DNA of 64,000 bases from Patescibacteria group bacterium (GCA_050953885.1 JBMNNJ010000001.1:74132-138131), one strand, 5' to 3'; shown: positions 11,457-18,468, counted from the first letter of the stretch. Numbers and translations are program-made. The notes: a model not told the origin generated them from the letters alone.

Positions 11457-12470
11457 ATGACCAAAGAAGAATTATCAAGCCGTTTAAGAACTTTGGAAGA
11501 AAAGCTTAATCTTGAGGTGAAGAAAAAACGCCTTGAGGAGCTTAAGAAAGAAAGTGAGAATCCGGCTCTTTGGCAAGACCACCAGCGAGCAGCCCAGATA
11601 ATGAAGGAGCTGGCAGATTTGCAAAAAGAGATGGAAACCATGGAAATGGCGGCTCTTTTTCTTGAAGAAGGAGAACTGGCGGAAGCCGAAAAATTGCTCT
11701 CGCAAGCGGAAAAAGAACTTTACTTTTCCGGCCCTTATGATCGGGGTGGAGCGATGGTGACTATTCAAGCCGGTCAGGGGGGAACAGAGGCGATGGATTG
11801 GGCGGGGATGTTAACACGAATGTACCAGCGGTTTTTTGAAAAAAAAGGCTGGCATTATGAAATTTTAGATCGTTCTTCGGGGGAGGAGGCGGGAATTAAG
11901 AGCGTCACCATGAGGGTGGAGGGGAAAAATGTTTACGGCATGCTAAAACATGAACAGGGAGCCCATCGTTTGGTGCGCCAATCGCCTTTTAATGCTGATA
12001 AACTGCGCCAAACTTCTTTTGCGCGGGTGGAAGTTTTTCCCCTTCTTCCCAAAGAGGATTTTGAAATTAATGAAGATGAAATTGAGTTTGAGGCTTTTCG
12101 GGCCGGTGGCCATGGCGGCCAAAACGTTAACAAAGTGGCCACGGCGGTGCGTTTACGCCATAAACCGACGGGCATCGTCGTTTCCTGCCAATCACAGCGT
12201 TATCAGCCCCAAAATCGGGAATTGGCAATGGATATGTTGCGGCAAAAGCTTTGGGCGCTTAAGGAGGAAGAGCGGGAGAAAAAAGAAGCCCAAATTCGCG
12301 GCGAATATCATGCTCCCAGCTGGGGCCAGCAAATTCGGTCTTATGTTTTGCACCCTTATAAAATGATTAAAGATTTGCGCACCGGTTATCAAACAAGCAA
12401 TGTGGAAGCAGTTTTAGATGGTGATTTAGACGGATTTATTGAGGAAGAAATTAAAATCTTGGCAAGATAA
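11457..12470 (+). CDS. prfB: peptide chain release factor 2 (SPF and GGQ motifs); single contiguous ORF with no programmed frameshift
   Basis: SPF tripeptide motif, GGQ motif, 337 aa. Confidence 0.93.
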
Positions 12471-12507
12471 AAAAATTGTGTTATAGTGGTTTAAGTTATT
12501 AAAAAGT

Positions 12508-13005
12508 ATGGCAGAAGAAGAAACCTATCTTATCAGCGACTTGGAGGAAAGTCAGGTAACGCCGGAAGAAGAAGGAAAAGAAGAAAACTTTTTTTCTTCT
12601 CCCAAGGGGAAAATTATCACCGCCACCGTGGCGGTGGTGGCAATTATTTTGGGCGTTTTTAGCGGGAAACTTTTAGCCAAACCCGGCGAGCAGGAGGCAA
12701 AAACGGCTAGTGCCGGCGTGGCGGAAGGAGAGGAGATTAAGCGGGGAATGGAATTTGGTCTTCTCGACGCCGAGGAAACTTTTAAGGATAACGCGATTGG
12801 GGTTTTGAAAGAAGGAGGGATTGACGGTGAGGGGACTCATCATTTGGAGCGAGAAGGCGGGCCGTCGCAGAATGTTTACCTCACTTCCTCTGCCGTGGAT
12901 TTAAGCCAATTAATAGGTCGCAAGGTTCAGGTTTGGGGGGAAACTTTTGCTACCCAAAAAGCGGGCTGGTTTATGGATGTGGTGAAGGTGAAAGTTTTAG
13001 AATAA
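12508..13005 (+). CDS. hypothetical single-pass membrane protein (165 aa) immediately upstream of ftsE
   Basis: One TM helix (ITATVAVVAIILGVF) and a small C-terminal domain. Confidence 0.4.
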   Translation: MAEEETYLISDLEESQVTPEEEGKEENFFSSPKGKIITATVAVVAIILGVFSGKLLAKPGEQEAKTASAGVAEGEEIKRGMEFGLLDAEETFKDNAIGVLKEGGIDGEGTHHLEREGGPSQNVYLTSSAVDLSQLIGRKVQVWGETFATQKAGWFMDVVKVKVLE

Positions 13006-13018
13006 AAGAGGCTTTCTT

Positions 13019-13753
13019 ATGATGACAACTGCCGAGGAAAACGAAACCGTTGAGAACGAAAAAAAAGCGGTAGTGAGATTAGAGAAGGTAGGAAAAAAAT
13101 TTGGGCCGCTAACAATTTTTGAGGAAATTAGTTTTTCTCTTTTTCCGGGCGAATTTGCCTTTTTGGTGGGGCCTTCAGGTTCAGGCAAAACCACCCTGCT
13201 TCGTTTAATTTACCGCGAACTTTTGCCAACAACGGGGGAAATTTTTTTAGACGAGGAGGAAATTTCGGCAAAAATTTCGGGGCGAAAACTTTGCGAGGTG
13301 AGGAAAAAAATTGGCCGAGTTTTTCAGGATTTAAAAATTATTCAAGACCGGACGGCTTGGGAAAACTTAATGCTGGCTTTTCAGATTTTAGGGAAGAACG
13401 ATAAGGAGGCAAAGAGCCAGATGGAGGAAATTTTTTCTCTTGTTGGTCTTGAAGAAAGAATGAATCTTTTCCCCAGCCAACTATCAGAGGGGGAAAAACA
13501 GCGATTGGGAATTGCCCGGGCGCTGGTGGGTGAGCCGGAAATTCTTTTAATTGATGAACCGACCAGTAATTTGGACCCGGCCAACACTTGGCAGATTATG
13601 AAGCTTTTGGACGAGATTAACAAGAAAGGGATTGCCGTTTTTTTGGCCACCCACGACGAGGATTTAGTAGATTCTTTGCAAAAAAGAGTGATCGAGATTG
13701 GTCAGGGAAAGTTGTTGCGAGATGAGAAAAAAGGAGGTTATTCAGCAAAATGA
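13019..13753 (+). CDS. ftsE: cell-division ABC ATPase FtsE
   Basis: Walker A GPSGSGKTT, ABC signature LSEGEKQR, Walker B ILLIDEP; followed by ftsX. Confidence 0.85.
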   Translation: MMTTAEENETVENEKKAVVRLEKVGKKFGPLTIFEEISFSLFPGEFAFLVGPSGSGKTTLLRLIYRELLPTTGEIFLDEEEISAKISGRKLCEVRKKIGRVFQDLKIIQDRTAWENLMLAFQILGKNDKEAKSQMEEIFSLVGLEERMNLFPSQLSEGEKQRLGIARALVGEPEILLIDEPTSNLDPANTWQIMKLLDEINKKGIAVFLATHDEDLVDSLQKRVIEIGQGKLLRDEKKGGYSAK

Positions 13754-14637
13754 ATAGTTTAAAAACGGCCTTAAGCCATATTCGCCGTTCCCCCTACCAA
13801 ACGGTTTTAATTATTTTGGTTTTGTTTTTTTCCTTTTTCCTTTTAACTTCTTTTGCGATTTTAGCCTTTGCTTCGCAAAAAGTGTTGACTTTTTTTGAAG
13901 CCAAGCCGCAGGCGATTGCTTATTTAAAAGACGAAGCCACCCCTGAGCAGGTGCAGGCGGTGGTTGATAAGCTTAAAGCCACCGGCAAGGTTAAGGAAAT
14001 AAAATATGTTTCCAAAGAAGAGGCTTTAAGAATTTATCAGGAGGCCAACAAGGATAATCCCCTGCTTTTGGAAATGGTAACCGCCGATATTCTGCCGGCA
14101 AGTTTGGAAATTTCCGCAAGTAATATTTCCTATCTTGAGGAATTGGCTTCTATTTTGGAAAAGGAAGACATTGTTTCCGTTTCCGAAAGCGGGAAAAAAG
14201 AGATTGACTTTGCCAAGGATATTGCCACTTCACTGCGGCAATGGACGCAAACAATTAGAAGGGTGGGAATAGGTTTGGGCGCTTTTTTATTAGCCGAGTG
14301 CTTTTTGCTTATTTTAGTGATTACCTCGATGAAAATTGCCCTGCGGCGCGAAGAAGTGGAAATTGTGCGTCTTTTAGGAGGTTCTTCCTGGTTTGCCCGC
14401 CTGCCTTTCTTATTTGAGGGGGCGATTTATGGATTTTTAGGTTCGCTTTTGGGGGCGGGGGCGACTTATTTGCTTTTAAGCCAAGGCGGGAAAATGGCGG
14501 AACAATTTTTAGGGAATATTGGCATTTTCCCCCTGCCTTTCTCTTTTTTGATCGCTCTTTTTGGAGGAACGGTTGTTTTTGCCTCGTTTCTTTGCGCTTT
14601 AGCCAGCTTCACGGCAACAAGACGGTATTTAAAATAA
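13750..14637 (+). CDS. ftsX: cell-division permease-like protein FtsX
   Basis: 4-TM topology with a periplasmic loop, overlapping the ftsE stop. Confidence 0.85.
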   Translation: MNSLKTALSHIRRSPYQTVLIILVLFFSFFLLTSFAILAFASQKVLTFFEAKPQAIAYLKDEATPEQVQAVVDKLKATGKVKEIKYVSKEEALRIYQEANKDNPLLLEMVTADILPASLEISASNISYLEELASILEKEDIVSVSESGKKEIDFAKDIATSLRQWTQTIRRVGIGLGAFLLAECFLLILVITSMKIALRREEVEIVRLLGGSSWFARLPFLFEGAIYGFLGSLLGAGATYLLLSQGGKMAEQFLGNIGIFPLPFSFLIALFGGTVVFASFLCALASFTATRRYLK

Positions 14638-14770: not shown

Positions 14771-14843
14771 GTAGGGGCGCATCACGATGCGCCCGCATCT
14801 TGACACAAATTATCTAACGGGCGATTCGTGAATCGCCCCTACA
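14771..14843. repeat. structured element bounded by GTAGGGGCG/CGCCCCTAC inverted repeats, with two inner hairpins (ggcgcatc-ac-gatgcgcc and gggcgattc-gt-gaatcgccc)
   Basis: Larger copy at 21367-21483 and a minimal copy near 25270. Confidence 0.7.
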
Positions 14844-14877
14844 AAGCCAATAATATTCTTTGATATTTTAAAAAAAT

Positions 14878-16056
14878 ATGGGAAAAAGAAAAAAGCTGTT
14901 TTGGTTTATTTTTGCTATTTTTGTCGGCTTTATTTTTTATTCCGGCTCAACGGTTTTGGCCGATGAGGTGAGCGATAAGTTTAACGATCTGCAAAACCAA
15001 ATCAGCGAGCTGGAGAAAAAGCTTGAGGAAACGCGGGGGCAAAAGCAAACTCTTTCTTCGCAAATTGCCTACATGAATCAGCAGATTCAAATTGCCCAGT
15101 TAAAAATTAACCAAACTCAAGCCCAAATAAGCGCCCTCGAAGAAGAAATTAATGATCTTTCCTTAAAAATTGATCGCCTTGATGTTTCTTTGGACAAACT
15201 TTCTCAATTGCTTTTGCGCCGGGTGGTGGAAACCTATAAAAAAGGCCAGCTTGAGCCCGCCTTGCTTCTTTTTGCCACCGAAGATATGAGCCAATTTTTA
15301 ACCAATTATCGTTATCTTCAGGAGGCGCAAAAGCATGACAAAGCCTTAATTTTGGCGGTGCAAGCGGCAAGGGATAATTTTGACGCCCAAAAAAGCCTTA
15401 AAGAAGAAAAACAGGCGGAGTTGGAAAAATTAAGGGTCCAGCTTCAACAGCAAAATAATGCCTTGGCACAGCAAAGAGCGGACAAAGAACGTCTTTTGGC
15501 GGTTACGAAAAGTAATGAAGCTTTGTATCAGCAAATGCTGGCCAATGCCTTGGCAGAGCTTCAGGCAATTCAGGCAATTGTGGCCGGCAGAGGGGAAGAA
15601 AAAGAAGTAGGCCAAGTTAAAGAAGGGGAAAAAATTGCCACTGTTATTCAAGGTAAATCCGCCTGTTCAACAGGAACACATTTACATTTCGAAGTGAGAG
15701 AGGGAAGCGCCCTGAAAAATCCCTTTACTTATCTTTCTTCAACTTCGCTAATTAATGATTCTGGTGGAGATGAATATTTTTTTGGGGGGAGTTGGTCTTG
15801 GCCATTAGTGGGGACAATAAGGCTAACACAGGGCTTTGGCAATACCTGGTGGGTGCGTTCCGGCGGGGCTAATTATCCTTCTCATACGGGAATTGATATT
15901 GTTTCCGACAATAGCGCGGTTTCGGCGGTTAAGGAGGGGACTTTATTTAATGGTTCAATTAAATGCGGAGGAGGAAATTTATTTTATGTGCGGGTGGATC
16001 ATGCTGACTCCGGTCTTGACACTTATTATCTTCACGTTAACTACGCCAAACTTTAA
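14878..16056 (+). CDS. EnvC-like coiled-coil protein with an M23/LytM peptidase domain whose segments appear circularly permuted
   Basis: Signal/TM, long coiled coil, then the STGTHLHFEV (HxH) segment before the HTGIDIV ... GGGN ... YYLHVNY segment; sits directly after ftsEX. Confidence 0.75.
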   Translation: MGKRKKLFWFIFAIFVGFIFYSGSTVLADEVSDKFNDLQNQISELEKKLEETRGQKQTLSSQIAYMNQQIQIAQLKINQTQAQISALEEEINDLSLKIDRLDVSLDKLSQLLLRRVVETYKKGQLEPALLLFATEDMSQFLTNYRYLQEAQKHDKALILAVQAARDNFDAQKSLKEEKQAELEKLRVQLQQQNNALAQQRADKERLLAVTKSNEALYQQMLANALAELQAIQAIVAGRGEEKEVGQVKEGEKIATVIQGKSACSTGTHLHFEVREGSALKNPFTYLSSTSLINDSGGDEYFFGGSWSWPLVGTIRLTQGFGNTWWVRSGGANYPSHTGIDIVSDNSAVSAVKEGTLFNGSIKCGGGNLFYVRVDHADSGLDTYYLHVNYAKL

Positions 16057-16373: not shown

Positions 16374-17684
16374 TTGGGGAATTGGGTAATAAATTTTCTT
16401 CTTGATAAAAAGAGGTTAGTTTTTGATAATAAAAACACGGTGGAAAAAAAGAAAATCTTTTTTCTTTTATTGGGAGCGTTTATTTTTCTGCTTTTACCAT
16501 CGGTGGTTTTTGGCCAGGTGGTAATTAACGAAGTTTATTATCAAGGAGACTCCACGAAGGAGTGGGTAGAAATTTATAATTATGGTGATGCTTCTTTTAA
16601 TTTAATGAACTGTCGGCTTGAAGATAATAATGGTAGTGATAATATTGGTGCTTATTCAATTAACGCTAAAGAGTTTTTGGTGATTGCGAAAATCGGAAAC
16701 AATAGTCTTGCAGAAGCTGTTGGCAGTCCGGGGAAAATTATTTGGTTGGATGGGCCAATAGGAAACGGTTTGGCTGATGGAGGAGATCGTCTTTTGCTGT
16801 CTTGTGGTGGGGAAGAGATAGATAAGATAAGCTGGGGTTCTGATATAATTTATTTTAATATAAAGGCAGTCGGCAATGGCTATTCTCTTGAGCGCTTACC
16901 GACAGGACAAGGAGATTTTGTTGAGCAGAAAAACCCAACACCGGGAAAAGGGGTTTTTATTGCCTTTACGCCAATACCCACAGCGACGATATCGCCATCG
17001 CCTCAATTGACATCAGACCTTACTCCAACAGTAATCGTTACCCCCGCTCCTGCAGCAGTGAAAGCAACTTATCAAATAAACGAGGTAAAAAACGAAAAAG
17101 GGGAGGTTCTTTCCAGTGTTAAAATTTATGTTGACGACCAGTATCTTCATCATTACGCGCCCGAGGTCTTGGAATTTGGCGACGGCTATTATTGCGATGA
17201 TGATAAAAAAGTGGCCTGCGGCTTCGGCGAGCATTCAATTAGGCTTGAAAAAAACGGCTACGAGGATTGGGAGGAAACAAAGGAGATTAAGGCGGGAGAT
17301 GCTTATTCGGTTAATCCGGTAATGGCTTTTTTACCCTCGCCAACACCAAACCCTACCGCTACTCCTGTTTCTAGTTTATCGCCAACAGGGCGGATAAGCC
17401 CAAGCCCGTCGTTGGCGATAACTTCTCTTTTATTAAGCCCGACTTCTTCTTCGCCCCTTTTGCCTTTTGCTGACTTTGCCTTAGTTCCTAAAAAGATCAC
17501 GGGCGAAGAAGAAATTTTGGAGGAAAATTTGGGGCAGGTTTTAGGAGAAGAAAAAAGAGAAGAAAAGAAAAGTTCAAGCTGGTATTTTGGTGTCGGCGCT
17601 TTTTATTTAGGCGTTTCCGGCTGGCGCTTAGCGCGGAAAAACGATAATGATATAATGGAAAAGTTAAATTTTGAAGAAAAATAA
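16374..17684 (+). CDS. secreted or surface protein with a Lamin-tail-domain (LTD), Pro/Thr-rich linkers, a second beta-rich domain and a C-terminal TM anchor
   Basis: LTD signature VVINEVYY ... WVEIYNYGD ... GDRLLL ... ISWG; PT-rich linkers; C-terminal hydrophobic segment. Confidence 0.55.
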   Translation: MGNWVINFLLDKKRLVFDNKNTVEKKKIFFLLLGAFIFLLLPSVVFGQVVINEVYYQGDSTKEWVEIYNYGDASFNLMNCRLEDNNGSDNIGAYSINAKEFLVIAKIGNNSLAEAVGSPGKIIWLDGPIGNGLADGGDRLLLSCGGEEIDKISWGSDIIYFNIKAVGNGYSLERLPTGQGDFVEQKNPTPGKGVFIAFTPIPTATISPSPQLTSDLTPTVIVTPAPAAVKATYQINEVKNEKGEVLSSVKIYVDDQYLHHYAPEVLEFGDGYYCDDDKKVACGFGEHSIRLEKNGYEDWEETKEIKAGDAYSVNPVMAFLPSPTPNPTATPVSSLSPTGRISPSPSLAITSLLLSPTSSSPLLPFADFALVPKKITGEEEILEENLGQVLGEEKREEKKSSSWYFGVGAFYLGVSGWRLARKNDNDIMEKLNFEEK

Positions 17685-18091
17685 TGAAAAAAGTCCTTTC
17701 TTTTTTAAATCGCTTTTTACCGCCAATTTTGGTAATGGCGTTAATTTTTTATCTTTCTTCCCGTTCTTCCTTTTCGGTTTCGCCAAAATTTTGGTTAAAT
17801 TTTTTAGTTTTTAAAACCCTTCACTTTTTAGAATTCGGGTTTTTATTCCTGCTTTGGGCGCGCGCTTTTTTGGGCAATAAAAATCGTTTTTGGCTGGCTT
17901 TTCTTTTGAGCTTTTTTTGGGCCTTAACCGATGAGGTTCATCAGCTTTTTGTCCCTACCCGAGAGGGGACAATCCGTGATATGCTCATTGATACGGCCGG
18001 AATTTTATTTTTTTGGTGGCTTTTATGGAGTATCTTACCAAAAGCGCCCAAGAAACTAAAGAATTGGGCGAAAAAATTGGCGCTAATTTAA
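17684..18091 (+). CDS. VanZ-like family membrane protein
   Basis: LTDEVHQLFVPTREGTIRDMLIDTAG motif. Confidence 0.7.
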   Translation: MKKVLSFLNRFLPPILVMALIFYLSSRSSFSVSPKFWLNFLVFKTLHFLEFGFLFLLWARAFLGNKNRFWLAFLLSFFWALTDEVHQLFVPTREGTIRDMLIDTAGILFFWWLLWSILPKAPKKLKNWAKKLALI

Positions 18092-18468
18092 AGCCGGGTG
18101 ATCTCTTGGCTTGTTTTGGCCAGCTGGGAGGCGGAAAAACCACCTTTCTTCAAGGAGTGGCCAAGGCTTTGGGGATAAAGGAGCGAATTTTAAGTCCGAC
18201 TTTTATTTTGATGCGCCAATACGAACTTCCCCACCAAAAAAGAGGGATAGAAAGATTTTATCATTGGGACTGGTATCGGATTAAGGGAGAAAAGGAAGCC
18301 TTGGCGGCGGGTTTTGGCGAAAATCTTCTTGATCCAAAAGCGGTAGTGGCGGTAGAATGGGCCGAAAACGCCCTTAAAGCCTTGCCGAGAAAAAGAATTG
18401 AGGTTCATTTTGAATATGGGGAGAAAGAAAAAGAGAGAAGAATAAGGATTATTAGAAAGAATTGTTAA
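18025..18468 (+). CDS. tsaE: tRNA t6A37 threonylcarbamoyl-adenosine biosynthesis ATPase TsaE
   Basis: GQLGGGKTTF P-loop, SPTF, HWDWYR motifs. Start at MEYLTK; overlaps the VanZ gene 3' end. Confidence 0.8.
   Translation: MEYLTKSAQETKELGEKIGANLKPGDLLACFGQLGGGKTTFLQGVAKALGIKERILSPTFILMRQYELPHQKRGIERFYHWDWYRIKGEKEALAAGFGENLLDPKAVVAVEWAENALKALPRKRIEVHFEYGEKEKERRIRIIRKNC

What the first reader, a model, noticed from the sequence alone, without database searches (positions are those of the whole stretch)
15600..16056. EnvC-like FtsEX partner whose M23 peptidase domain is circularly permuted
In the canonical LytM/M23 order, HxxxD and the GGGN/YxH region come before the C-terminal ...GSTG.ST.PHxHFE...P segment. 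Here, after the coiled coil, the protein first has VGQVKEGEKIATVIQGKSACSTGTHLHFEVREGSALKNPFTYL, the canonical C-terminal HxH segment. It then has PLVGTIRLTQGFGN ... PSHTGIDIV ... GGGNLFYVRVDHADSGLDTYYLHVNY, the canonical N-terminal segment, and then stops. All zinc ligands (H of HTGID, D, HLH) are present, so the domain may be active, unlike E. coli EnvC. The gene context (ftsE-ftsX-this gene) matches the FtsEX-EnvC amidase-activation module. A permuted M23 would be structurally unusual and informative on how FtsX couples to the hydrolase.
Basis: partly seen in the sequence, partly recalled or inferred. Interest (0 to 1): 0.5.

Follow-up and report, generated by a model that had tools for sequence, protein, structure and literature searches.

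The report
Circularly permuted M23 peptidase, FtsEX partner
The gene after ftsE-ftsX encodes a secreted coiled-coil protein whose zinc cell-wall peptidase (M23/LytM) domain has its two halves in swapped order; the swap is real, is conserved across a large group of ultra-small (Patescibacteria) bacteria, and I found no report of it for this enzyme family.

Summary
ORF 14878-16056 (+, 392 aa) has a signal/anchor segment, an EnvC-like coiled-coil hairpin and a C-terminal M23 domain. In that domain the HxH segment (res 240-290) precedes the WP...HxGxD...YxH segment (res 306-389).

- **Sequence tests:** PDB phmmer, Pfam, BLASTP against a canonical coiled-coil-M23 protein, a doubled-target alignment and an in-silico "un-permutation" all show a clean circular permutation.
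- **Not an artefact:** 131 of 134 retrieved homologues, about 95 of the 150 best 50%-identity clusters and 79 genomic loci share the order.
- **Context:** the gene sits in a conserved prfB-x-ftsE-ftsX-gene neighbourhood in Microgenomates-type Patescibacteria.
- **Active site:** H268, H270, H336, D340 and H386 are invariant in 119 full-length homologues.

The most likely function is an FtsEX-controlled, catalytically active septal peptidoglycan endopeptidase that acts directly, like PcsB, CwlO or RipC, rather than an amidase activator like EnvC. I rate it a new variant of a known kind and moderately interesting. Zinc-site geometry, activity and FtsX binding remain untested.

The parts
13019..13753 (+). 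ftsE (ABC ATPase)
   Evidence: Pfam ABC_tran E 2e-35. It is conserved directly upstream of ftsX in 70+ related loci.
13750..14637 (+). ftsX (FtsX_ECD plus FtsX permease domain)
   Evidence: Pfam FtsX_ECD E 4.6e-16 and FtsX E 1.1e-10. It lies immediately upstream of the coiled-coil-M23 gene in 79 of 83 loci examined.
14878..16056 (+). Whole gene: 392-aa secreted or anchored coiled-coil protein with a circularly permuted M23 domain
   Evidence: ORF list. Full-length AlphaFold2 model has pLDDT 90.0 and pTM 0.77. 566 homologues have E<=1e-10.
14878..14961 (+). N-terminal signal peptide or membrane anchor (res 1-28: KRKK, hydrophobic core, TVLA|DE)
   Evidence: Read from the sequence. Modelled as helix 2-22. 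Cleavage is inferred.
14950..15507 (+). EnvC-like antiparallel coiled-coil hairpin (helices 25-54, 59-123 and 137-210; tip 124-136 with a short helix 127-133)
   Evidence: NCBIfam EnvC model matches res 33-224 to profile 4-195, E 8.7e-14, below its cut-off. E. coli EnvC 8hd0_E aligns 25-238 to 31-242. Secondary structure. Invariant Y120, Y146, Q151 and D154 flank the tip.
15508..15594 (+). Last helix and junction (res 211-239, motif AExxAIQxIxAGxGxE); candidate autoinhibitory or 'restraining' element
   Evidence: This is the most conserved block of the protein (mean column identity 0.73; E227, A230, G237 and G239 invariant). It is replaced together with the catalytic domain in the cassette-swap variant P0028. 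The role is inferred.
15595..15747 (+). M23 segment that is C-terminal in canonical enzymes (V.VGQ.V..G..I...G.S.CSTGTHLHFE...NP), now first; HxH = H268 (15679-15681) and H270 (15685-15687)
   Evidence: H268 and H270 are invariant in 119 sequences.
15748..15792 (+). New linker joining the old C-terminus to the old N-terminus (res 291-305; D298 at least 90% conserved, G304 invariant)
   Evidence: It has no counterpart in canonical M23 domains (gap). It is modelled with pLDDT above 90.
15793..16044 (+). M23 segment that is N-terminal in canonical enzymes (W.WP...Q.FG...HTGID...CGGG hairpin...YYLH), now last; H336 (15883-15885), D340 (15895-15897) and third catalytic His H386 (16033-16035)
15664..15666 (+). 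Cys263, partner of Cys363 (15964-15966): near-invariant Cys pair bridging the two segments, possibly a disulfide
   Evidence: Both are at least 90% conserved. C/C occurs in 179 of 216 sequences, and 24 more carry the second Cys shifted by 3 positions. The bond itself is inferred.
11457..13005 (+). Conserved upstream neighbours: prfB (11457-12470) and a 165-aa membrane protein of unknown family (12508-13005)
   Evidence: Pfam PCRF/RF-1; the 165-aa protein has no family hit. Both are syntenic in most related loci.

Best explanation
The gene encodes the extracytoplasmic partner of the FtsEX divisome ABC complex in a Shapirobacteria/Microgenomates-type Patescibacterium.

After export, its long antiparallel coiled-coil hairpin docks by its tip between the two FtsX extracellular domains. 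The C-terminal domain is a zinc-dependent M23/LytM peptidoglycan endopeptidase whose chain has been circularly permuted. The canonical chain is cut in the loop after the 'YxHL' strand. The former C-terminal HxH segment now directly follows the coiled coil. A new linker of about 15-20 residues joins the old termini. The protein ends three to six residues after the third catalytic histidine.

All five active-site residues are kept, so the domain most likely cleaves peptidoglycan itself. ATP-driven movement of FtsEX would be transmitted through the coiled coil and would free the domain from autoinhibition by the highly conserved last helix (res 214-235). That helix is tethered by only about 4 residues to the new N-terminus, close in sequence context to the active-site strand.

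Shown here: the permutation, its conservation, the architecture, the synteny, residue conservation and the predicted single fold.

Inferred: FtsX binding, autoinhibition by the last helix, zinc binding, substrate and activity.
For: - **Permutation at sequence level:**
- **Family-wide conservation:** 131 of 134 retrieved proteins have HxH before HxGxD. About 95 of the 150 best 50%-identity clusters are permuted, 70 of them 370-440 aa long. 80 GTDB species loci were found.
- **Active site:** H268, H270, H336, D340 and H386 are invariant in 119 full-length homologues selected by E-value only. These are the M23-defining H(x)nD and HxH motifs plus the LytM-His260-equivalent histidine (PMC9662197).
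- **Coiled coil:** it is collinear with EnvC. The predicted hairpin has a short helix in the tip linker, as described for EnvC (PMC7668044). Invariant residues cluster around the tip.
- **Synteny:** prfB-x-ftsE-ftsX-gene is conserved in 79 of 83 loci.
- **Regulatory helix:** the last helix and junction form the most conserved block.
- **Precedent:** FtsEX partners that are themselves hydrolases and are autoinhibited include PcsB, CwlO and RipC (PMC11627006; PMC7668044).
Against: - No coordinates were available, so no permutation-aware superposition or zinc-ligand distance check could be made.
- The LytM Tyr204-equivalent oxyanion residue is not clearly conserved (position 333 is Y or G).
- Dojkabacteria homologues replace the HxGxD histidine (R-Y-A-I-D), so at least some family members may be non-catalytic.
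- FtsX binding, autoinhibition and activity rest on analogy alone.
Confidence: 0.8

Rival explanations
1. EnvC-type regulator: the permuted LytM domain does not cleave peptidoglycan. It serves as a docking groove that activates a separate amidase, as in the E. coli FtsEX-EnvC-AmiA/B system.
For: - The coiled coil is EnvC-like and the best NCBIfam hit is EnvC.
- Dojkabacteria homologues have lost the HxGxD histidine, which shows the scaffold can tolerate degeneration.
Against: - All five catalytic and zinc residues are invariant in 119 homologues. EnvC and NlpD lack them (PMC9662197).
- The EnvC model score of 51 bits is far below its 270-bit cut-off.
- In the same gene of close relatives the domain is swapped for a Cys-peptidase-like (Peptidase_C39-like) domain. 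This fits a catalytic cassette rather than an activator.
Confidence: 0.12
2. Artefact or decay product: a misassembly, a frameshift, or the remnant of a truncated tandem M23-M23 gene. On this reading the two pieces are separate incomplete fragments that do not form one functional fold.
For: - Tandem canonical M23-M23 proteins exist and match the permuted profile across C1-N2 (P0218, P0223). A truncated tandem is therefore formally conceivable.
- Foldseek found no significant PDB match.
Against: - The same order and the same termini occur in more than 130 independent proteins from many assemblies and sources, with identity down to 30-45%.
- The domain residues are strongly conserved.
- AlphaFold2 predicts one compact domain with pTM 0.88.
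- The protein ends at a conserved HVNY C-terminus.
Confidence: 0.02
3. A permuted M23 hydrolase that is active but works independently of FtsEX, for example in general wall turnover or as a lytic weapon against hosts or competitors. Gene adjacency to ftsEX would then be only operonic convenience.
For: - The permuted domain also occurs at the C-terminus of giant, probably surface or secreted, proteins with other modules (P0215, P0216, P0241).
- In this window there is a 240-nt gap between ftsX and the gene.
Against: - The coiled-coil hairpin is collinear with EnvC's FtsX-binding domain.
- The invariant coiled-coil residues cluster at the hairpin tip.
- ftsX adjacency is conserved in 79 of 83 loci over deep divergence, often with gaps of only a few nucleotides.
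Confidence: 0.06

Closest known systems
EnvC (E. coli / V. cholerae murein hydrolase activator; PDB 6TPI, 8HD0, 8TZL; NCBIfam NF008644)
   Same: - N-terminal signal, long antiparallel coiled-coil hairpin with a short helix in the tip linker, then a helix leading into a C-terminal LytM/M23-fold domain.
- The coiled coil aligns collinearly.
- Functional link to FtsEX.
   Different: - EnvC's LytM domain has canonical chain order and is catalytically degenerate. Here the domain is circularly permuted and keeps all catalytic residues.
- The EnvC family model scores 51 bits against a 270-bit cut-off.
- EnvC's restraining arm is a 50-residue kinked helix. Here the last helix is about 22 residues with a 4-residue tether.
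PcsB / CwlO / RipC (FtsEX-controlled coiled-coil peptidoglycan hydrolases of Gram-positives and mycobacteria)
   Same: - The coiled-coil FtsEX adaptor and the catalytic hydrolase are one polypeptide.
- Presumed autoinhibition relieved by the FtsEX ATP cycle (PMC7668044, PMC11627006).
- JGI labels homologues 'CwlO-like', and homologues carry weak PF24568 CC_PcsB hits.
   Different: - Their catalytic domains are CHAP or NlpC/P60 cysteine peptidases, not a zinc M23 domain.
- A close relative (P0028) does carry a Cys-peptidase-like domain on the same coiled coil.
Canonical coiled-coil-M23 proteins with an intact active site (e.g. P0273, P0280; 'MepM/NlpD'-annotated, about 380 aa)
   Same: Same length, same coiled coil plus M23 architecture and the same catalytic motifs. 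The coiled coil and the M23 N-segment align collinearly.
   Different: The HxH segment sits at the extreme C-terminus in them. Here it lies between the coiled coil and the rest of the domain.
Circularly permuted NlpC/P60 families (YaeF/poxvirus G6R, LRAT-like) and permuted topologies within the hybrid-barrel (HABAS) superfold
   Same: They are precedents for natural circular permutation in cell-wall peptidase folds (PMC6403190) and in the wider barrel-sandwich hybrid superfold to which M23 belongs (PMC11515920).
   Different: These are different enzyme families or superfold-level comparisons. None describes a permuted M23/LytM peptidase.

Membership tests
Peptidase family M23 (MEROPS M23B / Pfam PF01551) | H(x)nD zinc-binding motif | tested here: met
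   H336-T-G-I-D340. Both residues are invariant in 119 homologues. The motif definition is from PMC9662197.
Peptidase family M23 (MEROPS M23B / Pfam PF01551) | HxH motif (second His is a zinc ligand, first His activates water) | tested here: met
   H268-L-H270, invariant.
Peptidase family M23 (MEROPS M23B / Pfam PF01551) | Additional catalytic His in the 'YxH' strand (LytM His260) | tested here: met
   Y384-L-H386; H386 is invariant. It aligns to the canonical YAH/YGH position.
Peptidase family M23 (MEROPS M23B / Pfam PF01551) | Score above the Pfam gathering threshold | tested here: met
   39 bits against 28.7, but as two stretches in swapped order.
Peptidase family M23 (MEROPS M23B / Pfam PF01551) | Canonical collinear order: H(x)nD ... 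YxH ... HxH | tested here: not met
   The order here is HxH ... HxxxD ... YxH. Collinearity is restored only after in-silico re-permutation. This is the feature that makes it a variant.
Peptidase family M23 (MEROPS M23B / Pfam PF01551) | M23/LytM three-dimensional fold with ligands converging on one zinc site | tested here: inconclusive
Peptidase family M23 (MEROPS M23B / Pfam PF01551) | Zinc-dependent peptidoglycan endopeptidase activity | not testable with these tools
   Requires biochemistry.
EnvC, murein hydrolase activator (NCBIfam NF008644) | Family model score above the curated cut-off | tested here: not met
   51.3 bits against a 270-bit cut-off. Only the coiled coil matches.
EnvC, murein hydrolase activator (NCBIfam NF008644) | Degenerate LytM domain lacking catalytic residues; activates amidases | tested here: not met
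   All catalytic residues are present and invariant. Amidase activation itself is not testable here.
EnvC, murein hydrolase activator (NCBIfam NF008644) | Antiparallel coiled-coil hairpin followed by a helix leading into the LytM domain | tested here: met
   Helices 25-54/59-123, tip 124-136, helix 137-210, then helix 214-235. The alignment to EnvC is collinear.
FtsEX-controlled coiled-coil hydrolases (PcsB/CwlO/RipC class) | Coiled-coil adaptor fused to a catalytically competent peptidoglycan hydrolase domain | tested here: met
   Architecture; intact active site. Competence is inferred from residue conservation.
FtsEX-controlled coiled-coil hydrolases (PcsB/CwlO/RipC class) | Physical binding to the FtsX extracellular domain and ATPase-dependent activation | not testable with these tools
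   Only conserved gene adjacency (79 of 83 loci) and conservation of tip residues support it.
FtsEX-controlled coiled-coil hydrolases (PcsB/CwlO/RipC class) | Catalytic domain of CHAP or NlpC/P60 type | tested here: not met
   The domain here is M23. A sister allele, P0028, carries a Peptidase_C39-like Cys-peptidase domain.

The most novel reading that the evidence does not exclude
This would be the first natural circular permutant of the M23/LytM peptidase fold, fixed as the standard FtsEX partner across a whole class of Patescibacteria. On this reading the permutation is adaptive. It moves the coiled-coil attachment point from the canonical N-terminus to a site next to the active-site 'YxH' strand. 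The highly conserved last helix would then sit on a 4-residue leash at the catalytic groove. That would give a way for FtsEX to gate an active metallopeptidase that differs geometrically from the EnvC restraining arm. The last helix plus the hydrolase domain would behave as an exchangeable cassette, as the Cys-peptidase allele suggests.
Probability: 0.35. Interest if true: 0.7.

Novelty: new variant of a known kind. Interest (0 to 1): 0.55.

Why it matters
- **A natural experiment for the M23 field:** M23/LytM domains are among the most studied peptidoglycan hydrolases and antibacterial enzymes (lysostaphin, LytM, EnvC/NlpD). They are defined in databases by a fixed motif order. A conserved natural permutant shows the fold tolerates re-threading at a defined loop, which is useful for engineering chimeric lysins.
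- **Annotation:** it explains why Pfam hits on homologues are marked only 'faint' in the precomputed records and why Foldseek returned nothing, and it flags a blind spot in order-dependent annotation.
- **FtsEX mechanism:** it supplies a variant in which the mechanical input (the coiled coil) enters the catalytic domain at a different point. That could help test how mechanotransmission releases autoinhibition.
- **Cell division in Patescibacteria:** it identifies the likely septal hydrolase of a large, uncultivated bacterial class with reduced genomes.

Tried and rejected
- **Foldseek against the PDB with the domain model:** no significant hit. I read this as a consequence of the order-dependent 3Di alignment, not as evidence against the fold.
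- **afdb50 library:** not available, so I could not ask whether AFDB holds permuted models.
- **Model coordinates:** not exposed in /data, so no CE-CP or TM-align -cp run and no metal-site geometry check.
- **Literature:** searches for permuted M23/LytM and for FtsEX or EnvC in CPR/Patescibacteria returned only NlpC/P60 permutations, a superfold-level HABAS statement and unrelated papers.
- **Regulatory RNA or promoter in the 240-nt ftsX-gene spacer:** nothing above chance.
- **A canonical-order M23 with the same SACSTGTHLH signature in a Saccharibacteria-labelled 868-aa protein (L083):** tested as a possible closest canonical relative, but the similarity is limited to the motif.
- **Tandem M23-M23 proteins as the direct ancestor:** they fit the duplication-deletion model, but nothing ties them specifically to this lineage.
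- **Misassembly, frameshift or fragment explanations:** rejected because of more than 130 concordant homologues.

Full report
**1. What is in the sequence**

VGQVKEGEK... begins at nt 15601 and the stop codon is 16054-16056.

Upstream on the same strand lie four genes:
- prfB (11457-12470)
- a 165-aa membrane protein with no family match (12508-13005)
- ftsE (13019-13753; ABC_tran E 2e-35)
- ftsX (13750-14637; FtsX_ECD E 4.6e-16, FtsX E 1.1e-10)

Downstream lie an LTD/PEGA surface protein, a VanZ-like gene and tsaE.

The closest homologues are labelled Candidatus Shapirobacteria (91% identity). A wider set is labelled Microgenomates or Patescibacteria.

**2. Is the M23 domain really permuted?**

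Five independent sequence tests say yes.

(a) phmmer against PDB sequences splits the match. Residues 315-388 align to positions 29-92 of the M23 hydrolase 9gy1_A, and residues 244-278 align to positions 98-131. The same inversion appears with 5j1l, 3slu and 6muk.

(b) Pfam PF01551 scores 39 bits against a 28.7-bit cut-off in two stretches. Residues 244-281 match the end of the profile (positions 60-95 of 96).

(c) I aligned the domain to canonical M23 domains, once as single targets and once concatenated with themselves. The scores rose from 104, 95 and 104 to 179, 171 and 175. The doubled alignment is one collinear path that runs from the C-terminal half of copy 1 into the N-terminal half of copy 2. 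Shuffled queries give 33 +/- 5.5.

(d) BLASTP against P0273, a 383-aa coiled-coil-M23 protein of canonical order, aligns the whole coiled coil and the segment 297-386 collinearly. Residues 237-296 are left as an apparent insertion. That insertion (242-286) matches the extreme C-terminus of P0273 (340-382) at 47% identity.

(e) I re-ordered the two segments in silico (303-392 followed by 238-290). The re-ordered sequence matches 11 solved M23 chains as a single collinear stretch (9gy1_A, query 13-131 to chain 29-131, E 1e-8). The native order gives 5 hits, none with a single significant stretch.

The cut lies in the loop after the 'YxHL' strand. The old termini (…NPxxYL and W.WP…) are joined by a new linker, residues about 291-305.

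**3. Is it an artefact?**

No. The permuted order is shared by independent assemblies across deep divergence.
- A search with the domain found 13 homologues with the same order.
- Of the 134 proteins fetched, 131 have HxH before HxGxD. The exceptions are one canonical weak hit, one coiled-coil-only fragment and one domain-swap variant.
- An exhaustive profile search of 1.84 billion cluster representatives found 207 clusters at E<=1e-10. Among the 150 best, about 95 are permuted. Seventy of these are 370-440 aa proteins with the domain at the C-terminus.
- A motif-seeded scan of GTDB species genomes returned 80 loci. They are labelled Shapiro-, Woese-, Davies-, Beckwith-, Pace-, Levy-, Gottesman- and Curtissbacteria, and more distantly Dojkabacteria.

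**4. Conserved context**

I ran tblastn with the window's neighbouring proteins against all 83 loci then held. ftsX lies immediately upstream of the coiled-coil-M23 gene in 79 of them. The four exceptions are three very short contigs and one unrelated hit. ftsE, the 165-aa protein and prfB usually lie further upstream. The ftsEX association is therefore a conserved operon-like neighbourhood, not a coincidence of this window.

**5. Residue conservation**

I aligned 119 full-length homologues selected by E-value only. H268 and H270 (HxH), H336 and D340 (HxxxD) and H386 (the LytM-His260-equivalent in 'YYLH') are all invariant. So are S264, P282, G304, W308, P309, Q318, G321, G338, G354, Y370 and Y384. 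According to the M23 review PMC9662197, these are the family's defining catalytic residues. E. coli EnvC and NlpD lack them.

C263 and C363 form a near-invariant pair that links the two segments. C/C occurs in 179 of 216 sequences, and 24 more have the second Cys shifted by three positions. A disulfide is a reasonable guess but is unproven.

In the coiled coil, the invariant residues Y120, Y146, Q151 and D154 flank the hairpin tip. That is where EnvC binds the FtsX periplasmic domains (PMC7668044).

The most conserved block of the whole protein is the last helix and its junction, residues 211-239, with the motif AExxAIQxIxAGxGxE. Its mean column identity is 0.73, against 0.70 for the catalytic segments and 0.59-0.65 for the long helices.

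**6. Structure**

The AlphaFold2 model of residues 235-392 (14-sequence alignment) is a single compact beta-rich domain with pLDDT 90.4 and pTM 0.88. The new linker is confidently placed.

The full-length model (119-sequence alignment) has pLDDT 90.0 and pTM 0.77. It shows these elements:
- helix 2-22 (signal or anchor)
- helices 25-54 and 59-123
- a tip linker 124-136 containing a short helix
- helix 137-210
- helix 214-235
- after about 4 residues, the beta domain 240-389

This matches the EnvC plan of long helix I, a linker with a six-residue helix, long helix II and a restraining arm leading into the LytM domain (PMC7668044). The EnvC NCBIfam model aligns collinearly with residues 33-224 (E 8.7e-14), but the score of 51 bits is far below the 270-bit family cut-off.

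I could not run a permutation-aware superposition or measure ligand distances, because coordinates are not exposed.

**7. Most likely function and mechanism**

Shown:
- The protein is exported or anchored.
- It has an EnvC-like coiled coil.
- It carries a permuted M23 domain with an intact, invariant active site.
- It is encoded next to ftsEX throughout the lineage.

Inferred:
- The hairpin tip docks between the FtsX extracellular domains.
- The FtsE ATP cycle is transmitted through the coiled coil.
- The last helix (214-235) autoinhibits the M23 groove until it is displaced.
- The freed domain cleaves peptidoglycan cross-links at the septum.

Because the active site is intact, the system most resembles the direct-hydrolase FtsEX partners PcsB, CwlO and RipC (PMC11627006). 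The EnvC amidase-activator relay is the less likely model.

The permutation moves the coiled-coil entry point from the canonical N-terminus to the loop next to the strand that carries catalytic H386. It also leaves the protein's C-terminus there. This may place the regulatory helix on a very short leash at the groove. That step is speculation.

**8. Origin**

The exhaustive search also returned tandem canonical M23-M23 proteins. Examples are P0218 (319 aa) and P0223 (a BlaR1-type M56 domain plus two M23 domains). They match the permuted profile across C1-N2. This is the intermediate expected under the duplication-then-truncation model of circular permutation, but nothing links these particular proteins to the Patescibacteria lineage.

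The permuted domain has also spread to other architectures. It sits at or near the C-terminus of proteins of 1256, 894 (with Exo_endo_phos) and 2174 aa.

**9. Novelty**

Source databases label members 'hypothetical protein', 'peptidoglycan hydrolase CwlO-like protein' or 'murein hydrolase activator EnvC family protein'. No NCBIfam model reaches its cut-off.

Full-text searches found no description of a permuted M23/LytM domain. They returned only permuted NlpC/P60 families (PMC6403190) and a statement that hybrid-barrel (HABAS) topologies, a superfold that includes M23, are related by circular permutation (PMC11515920). The library is incomplete, so prior description elsewhere cannot be excluded.

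I classify it as a new variant of a known kind: a known enzyme family and a known FtsEX-partner architecture with a new chain topology.

**10. Verdict**

- Observation: confirmed.
- Confidence that this is a genuine, conserved circular permutation: about 0.9 or higher.
- Confidence that it is an FtsEX-controlled active endopeptidase: about 0.75-0.8.
- Interest: 0.55.

Noticed in passing
window 14816-15542 vs L084 71-797 (protein P0028): A close relative carries the same gene with 92% nucleotide identity (93% amino-acid identity over the first 217 residues). From about residue 218 it switches to a Cys-peptidase-like (Peptidase_C39/C39_2-like) C-terminal domain instead of the permuted M23 domain. 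The 12 cluster members come from NCBI, JGI, ENA and Logan. It looks like a swap of a 'last helix plus hydrolase' cassette on one FtsEX-binding coiled coil.
   Followed up: partly
window 12508-13005 (+): A 165-aa protein lies between prfB and ftsE. It has an acidic N-terminus, one transmembrane helix and a C-terminal domain with no Pfam match. It is conserved at this position in about 75 related loci at 33-65% identity, so it may be an uncharacterised component of the prfB-ftsEX unit.
   Followed up: partly
window 15664-15666 and 15964-15966 (Cys263, Cys363): A near-invariant cysteine pair sits five residues before HxH and at the CGGG hairpin, bridging the two permuted segments. When the second Cys is missing from its column it reappears three residues later. 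It may be a stabilising disulfide.
   Followed up: partly
L080 3161-4462, L081 1990-3258, L082 3188-4495: Dojkabacteria-labelled homologues (30-32% identity, also downstream of ftsEX) keep the permuted order, HLH and F-H-M. They have R-Y-A-I-D where the HxGxD zinc motif should be. This could be a degenerate, possibly regulatory, version of the permuted domain.
   Followed up: partly
proteins P0215 (1256 aa), P0216 (894 aa; cluster member P0281 2492 aa), P0241 (2174 aa): The permuted M23 domain also occurs at or near the C-terminus of very large proteins with other modules (Exo_endo_phos, TSP3 repeats). The permuted form therefore behaves as a mobile domain.
   Followed up: partly
proteins P0218, P0227, P0245, P0272, P0223, P0231, P0233 and others: Proteins with two or three tandem canonical M23 domains, some fused to a BlaR1-type M56 sensor domain, match the permuted profile across the C1-N2 junction. 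They are formal candidates for the duplication intermediate of a circular permutation.
   Followed up: partly
loci L004-L083 (record titles): Many GTDB MAG records that carry this Patescibacteria-type operon are titled 'uncultured Gammaproteobacteria' or 'uncultured Pseudomonadales bacterium'. One is titled 'Bathyarchaeia archaeon' and one 'candidate division TM6'. The titles look like placeholders, misbinning or mislabelling and should not be read as taxonomic spread.
   Followed up: no
window 16374-17684 (+), 17684-18091 (+), 18013-18468 (+): Downstream lies a 436-aa LTD (lamin-tail) plus PEGA protein with Pro/Thr/Ser-rich linkers and a C-terminal hydrophobic segment, followed by VanZ-like and tsaE ORFs. 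As listed, those two ORFs overlap by 79 nt, so the tsaE TTG start is probably too far upstream. LTD-like, VanZ and tsaE genes recur downstream in many related loci.
   Followed up: no
window 1-64000: GC skew is positive in every 2-kb bin, cumulative skew rises monotonically, and nearly all long ORFs are on the + strand. This fits a single leading-strand replichore segment.
   Followed up: no
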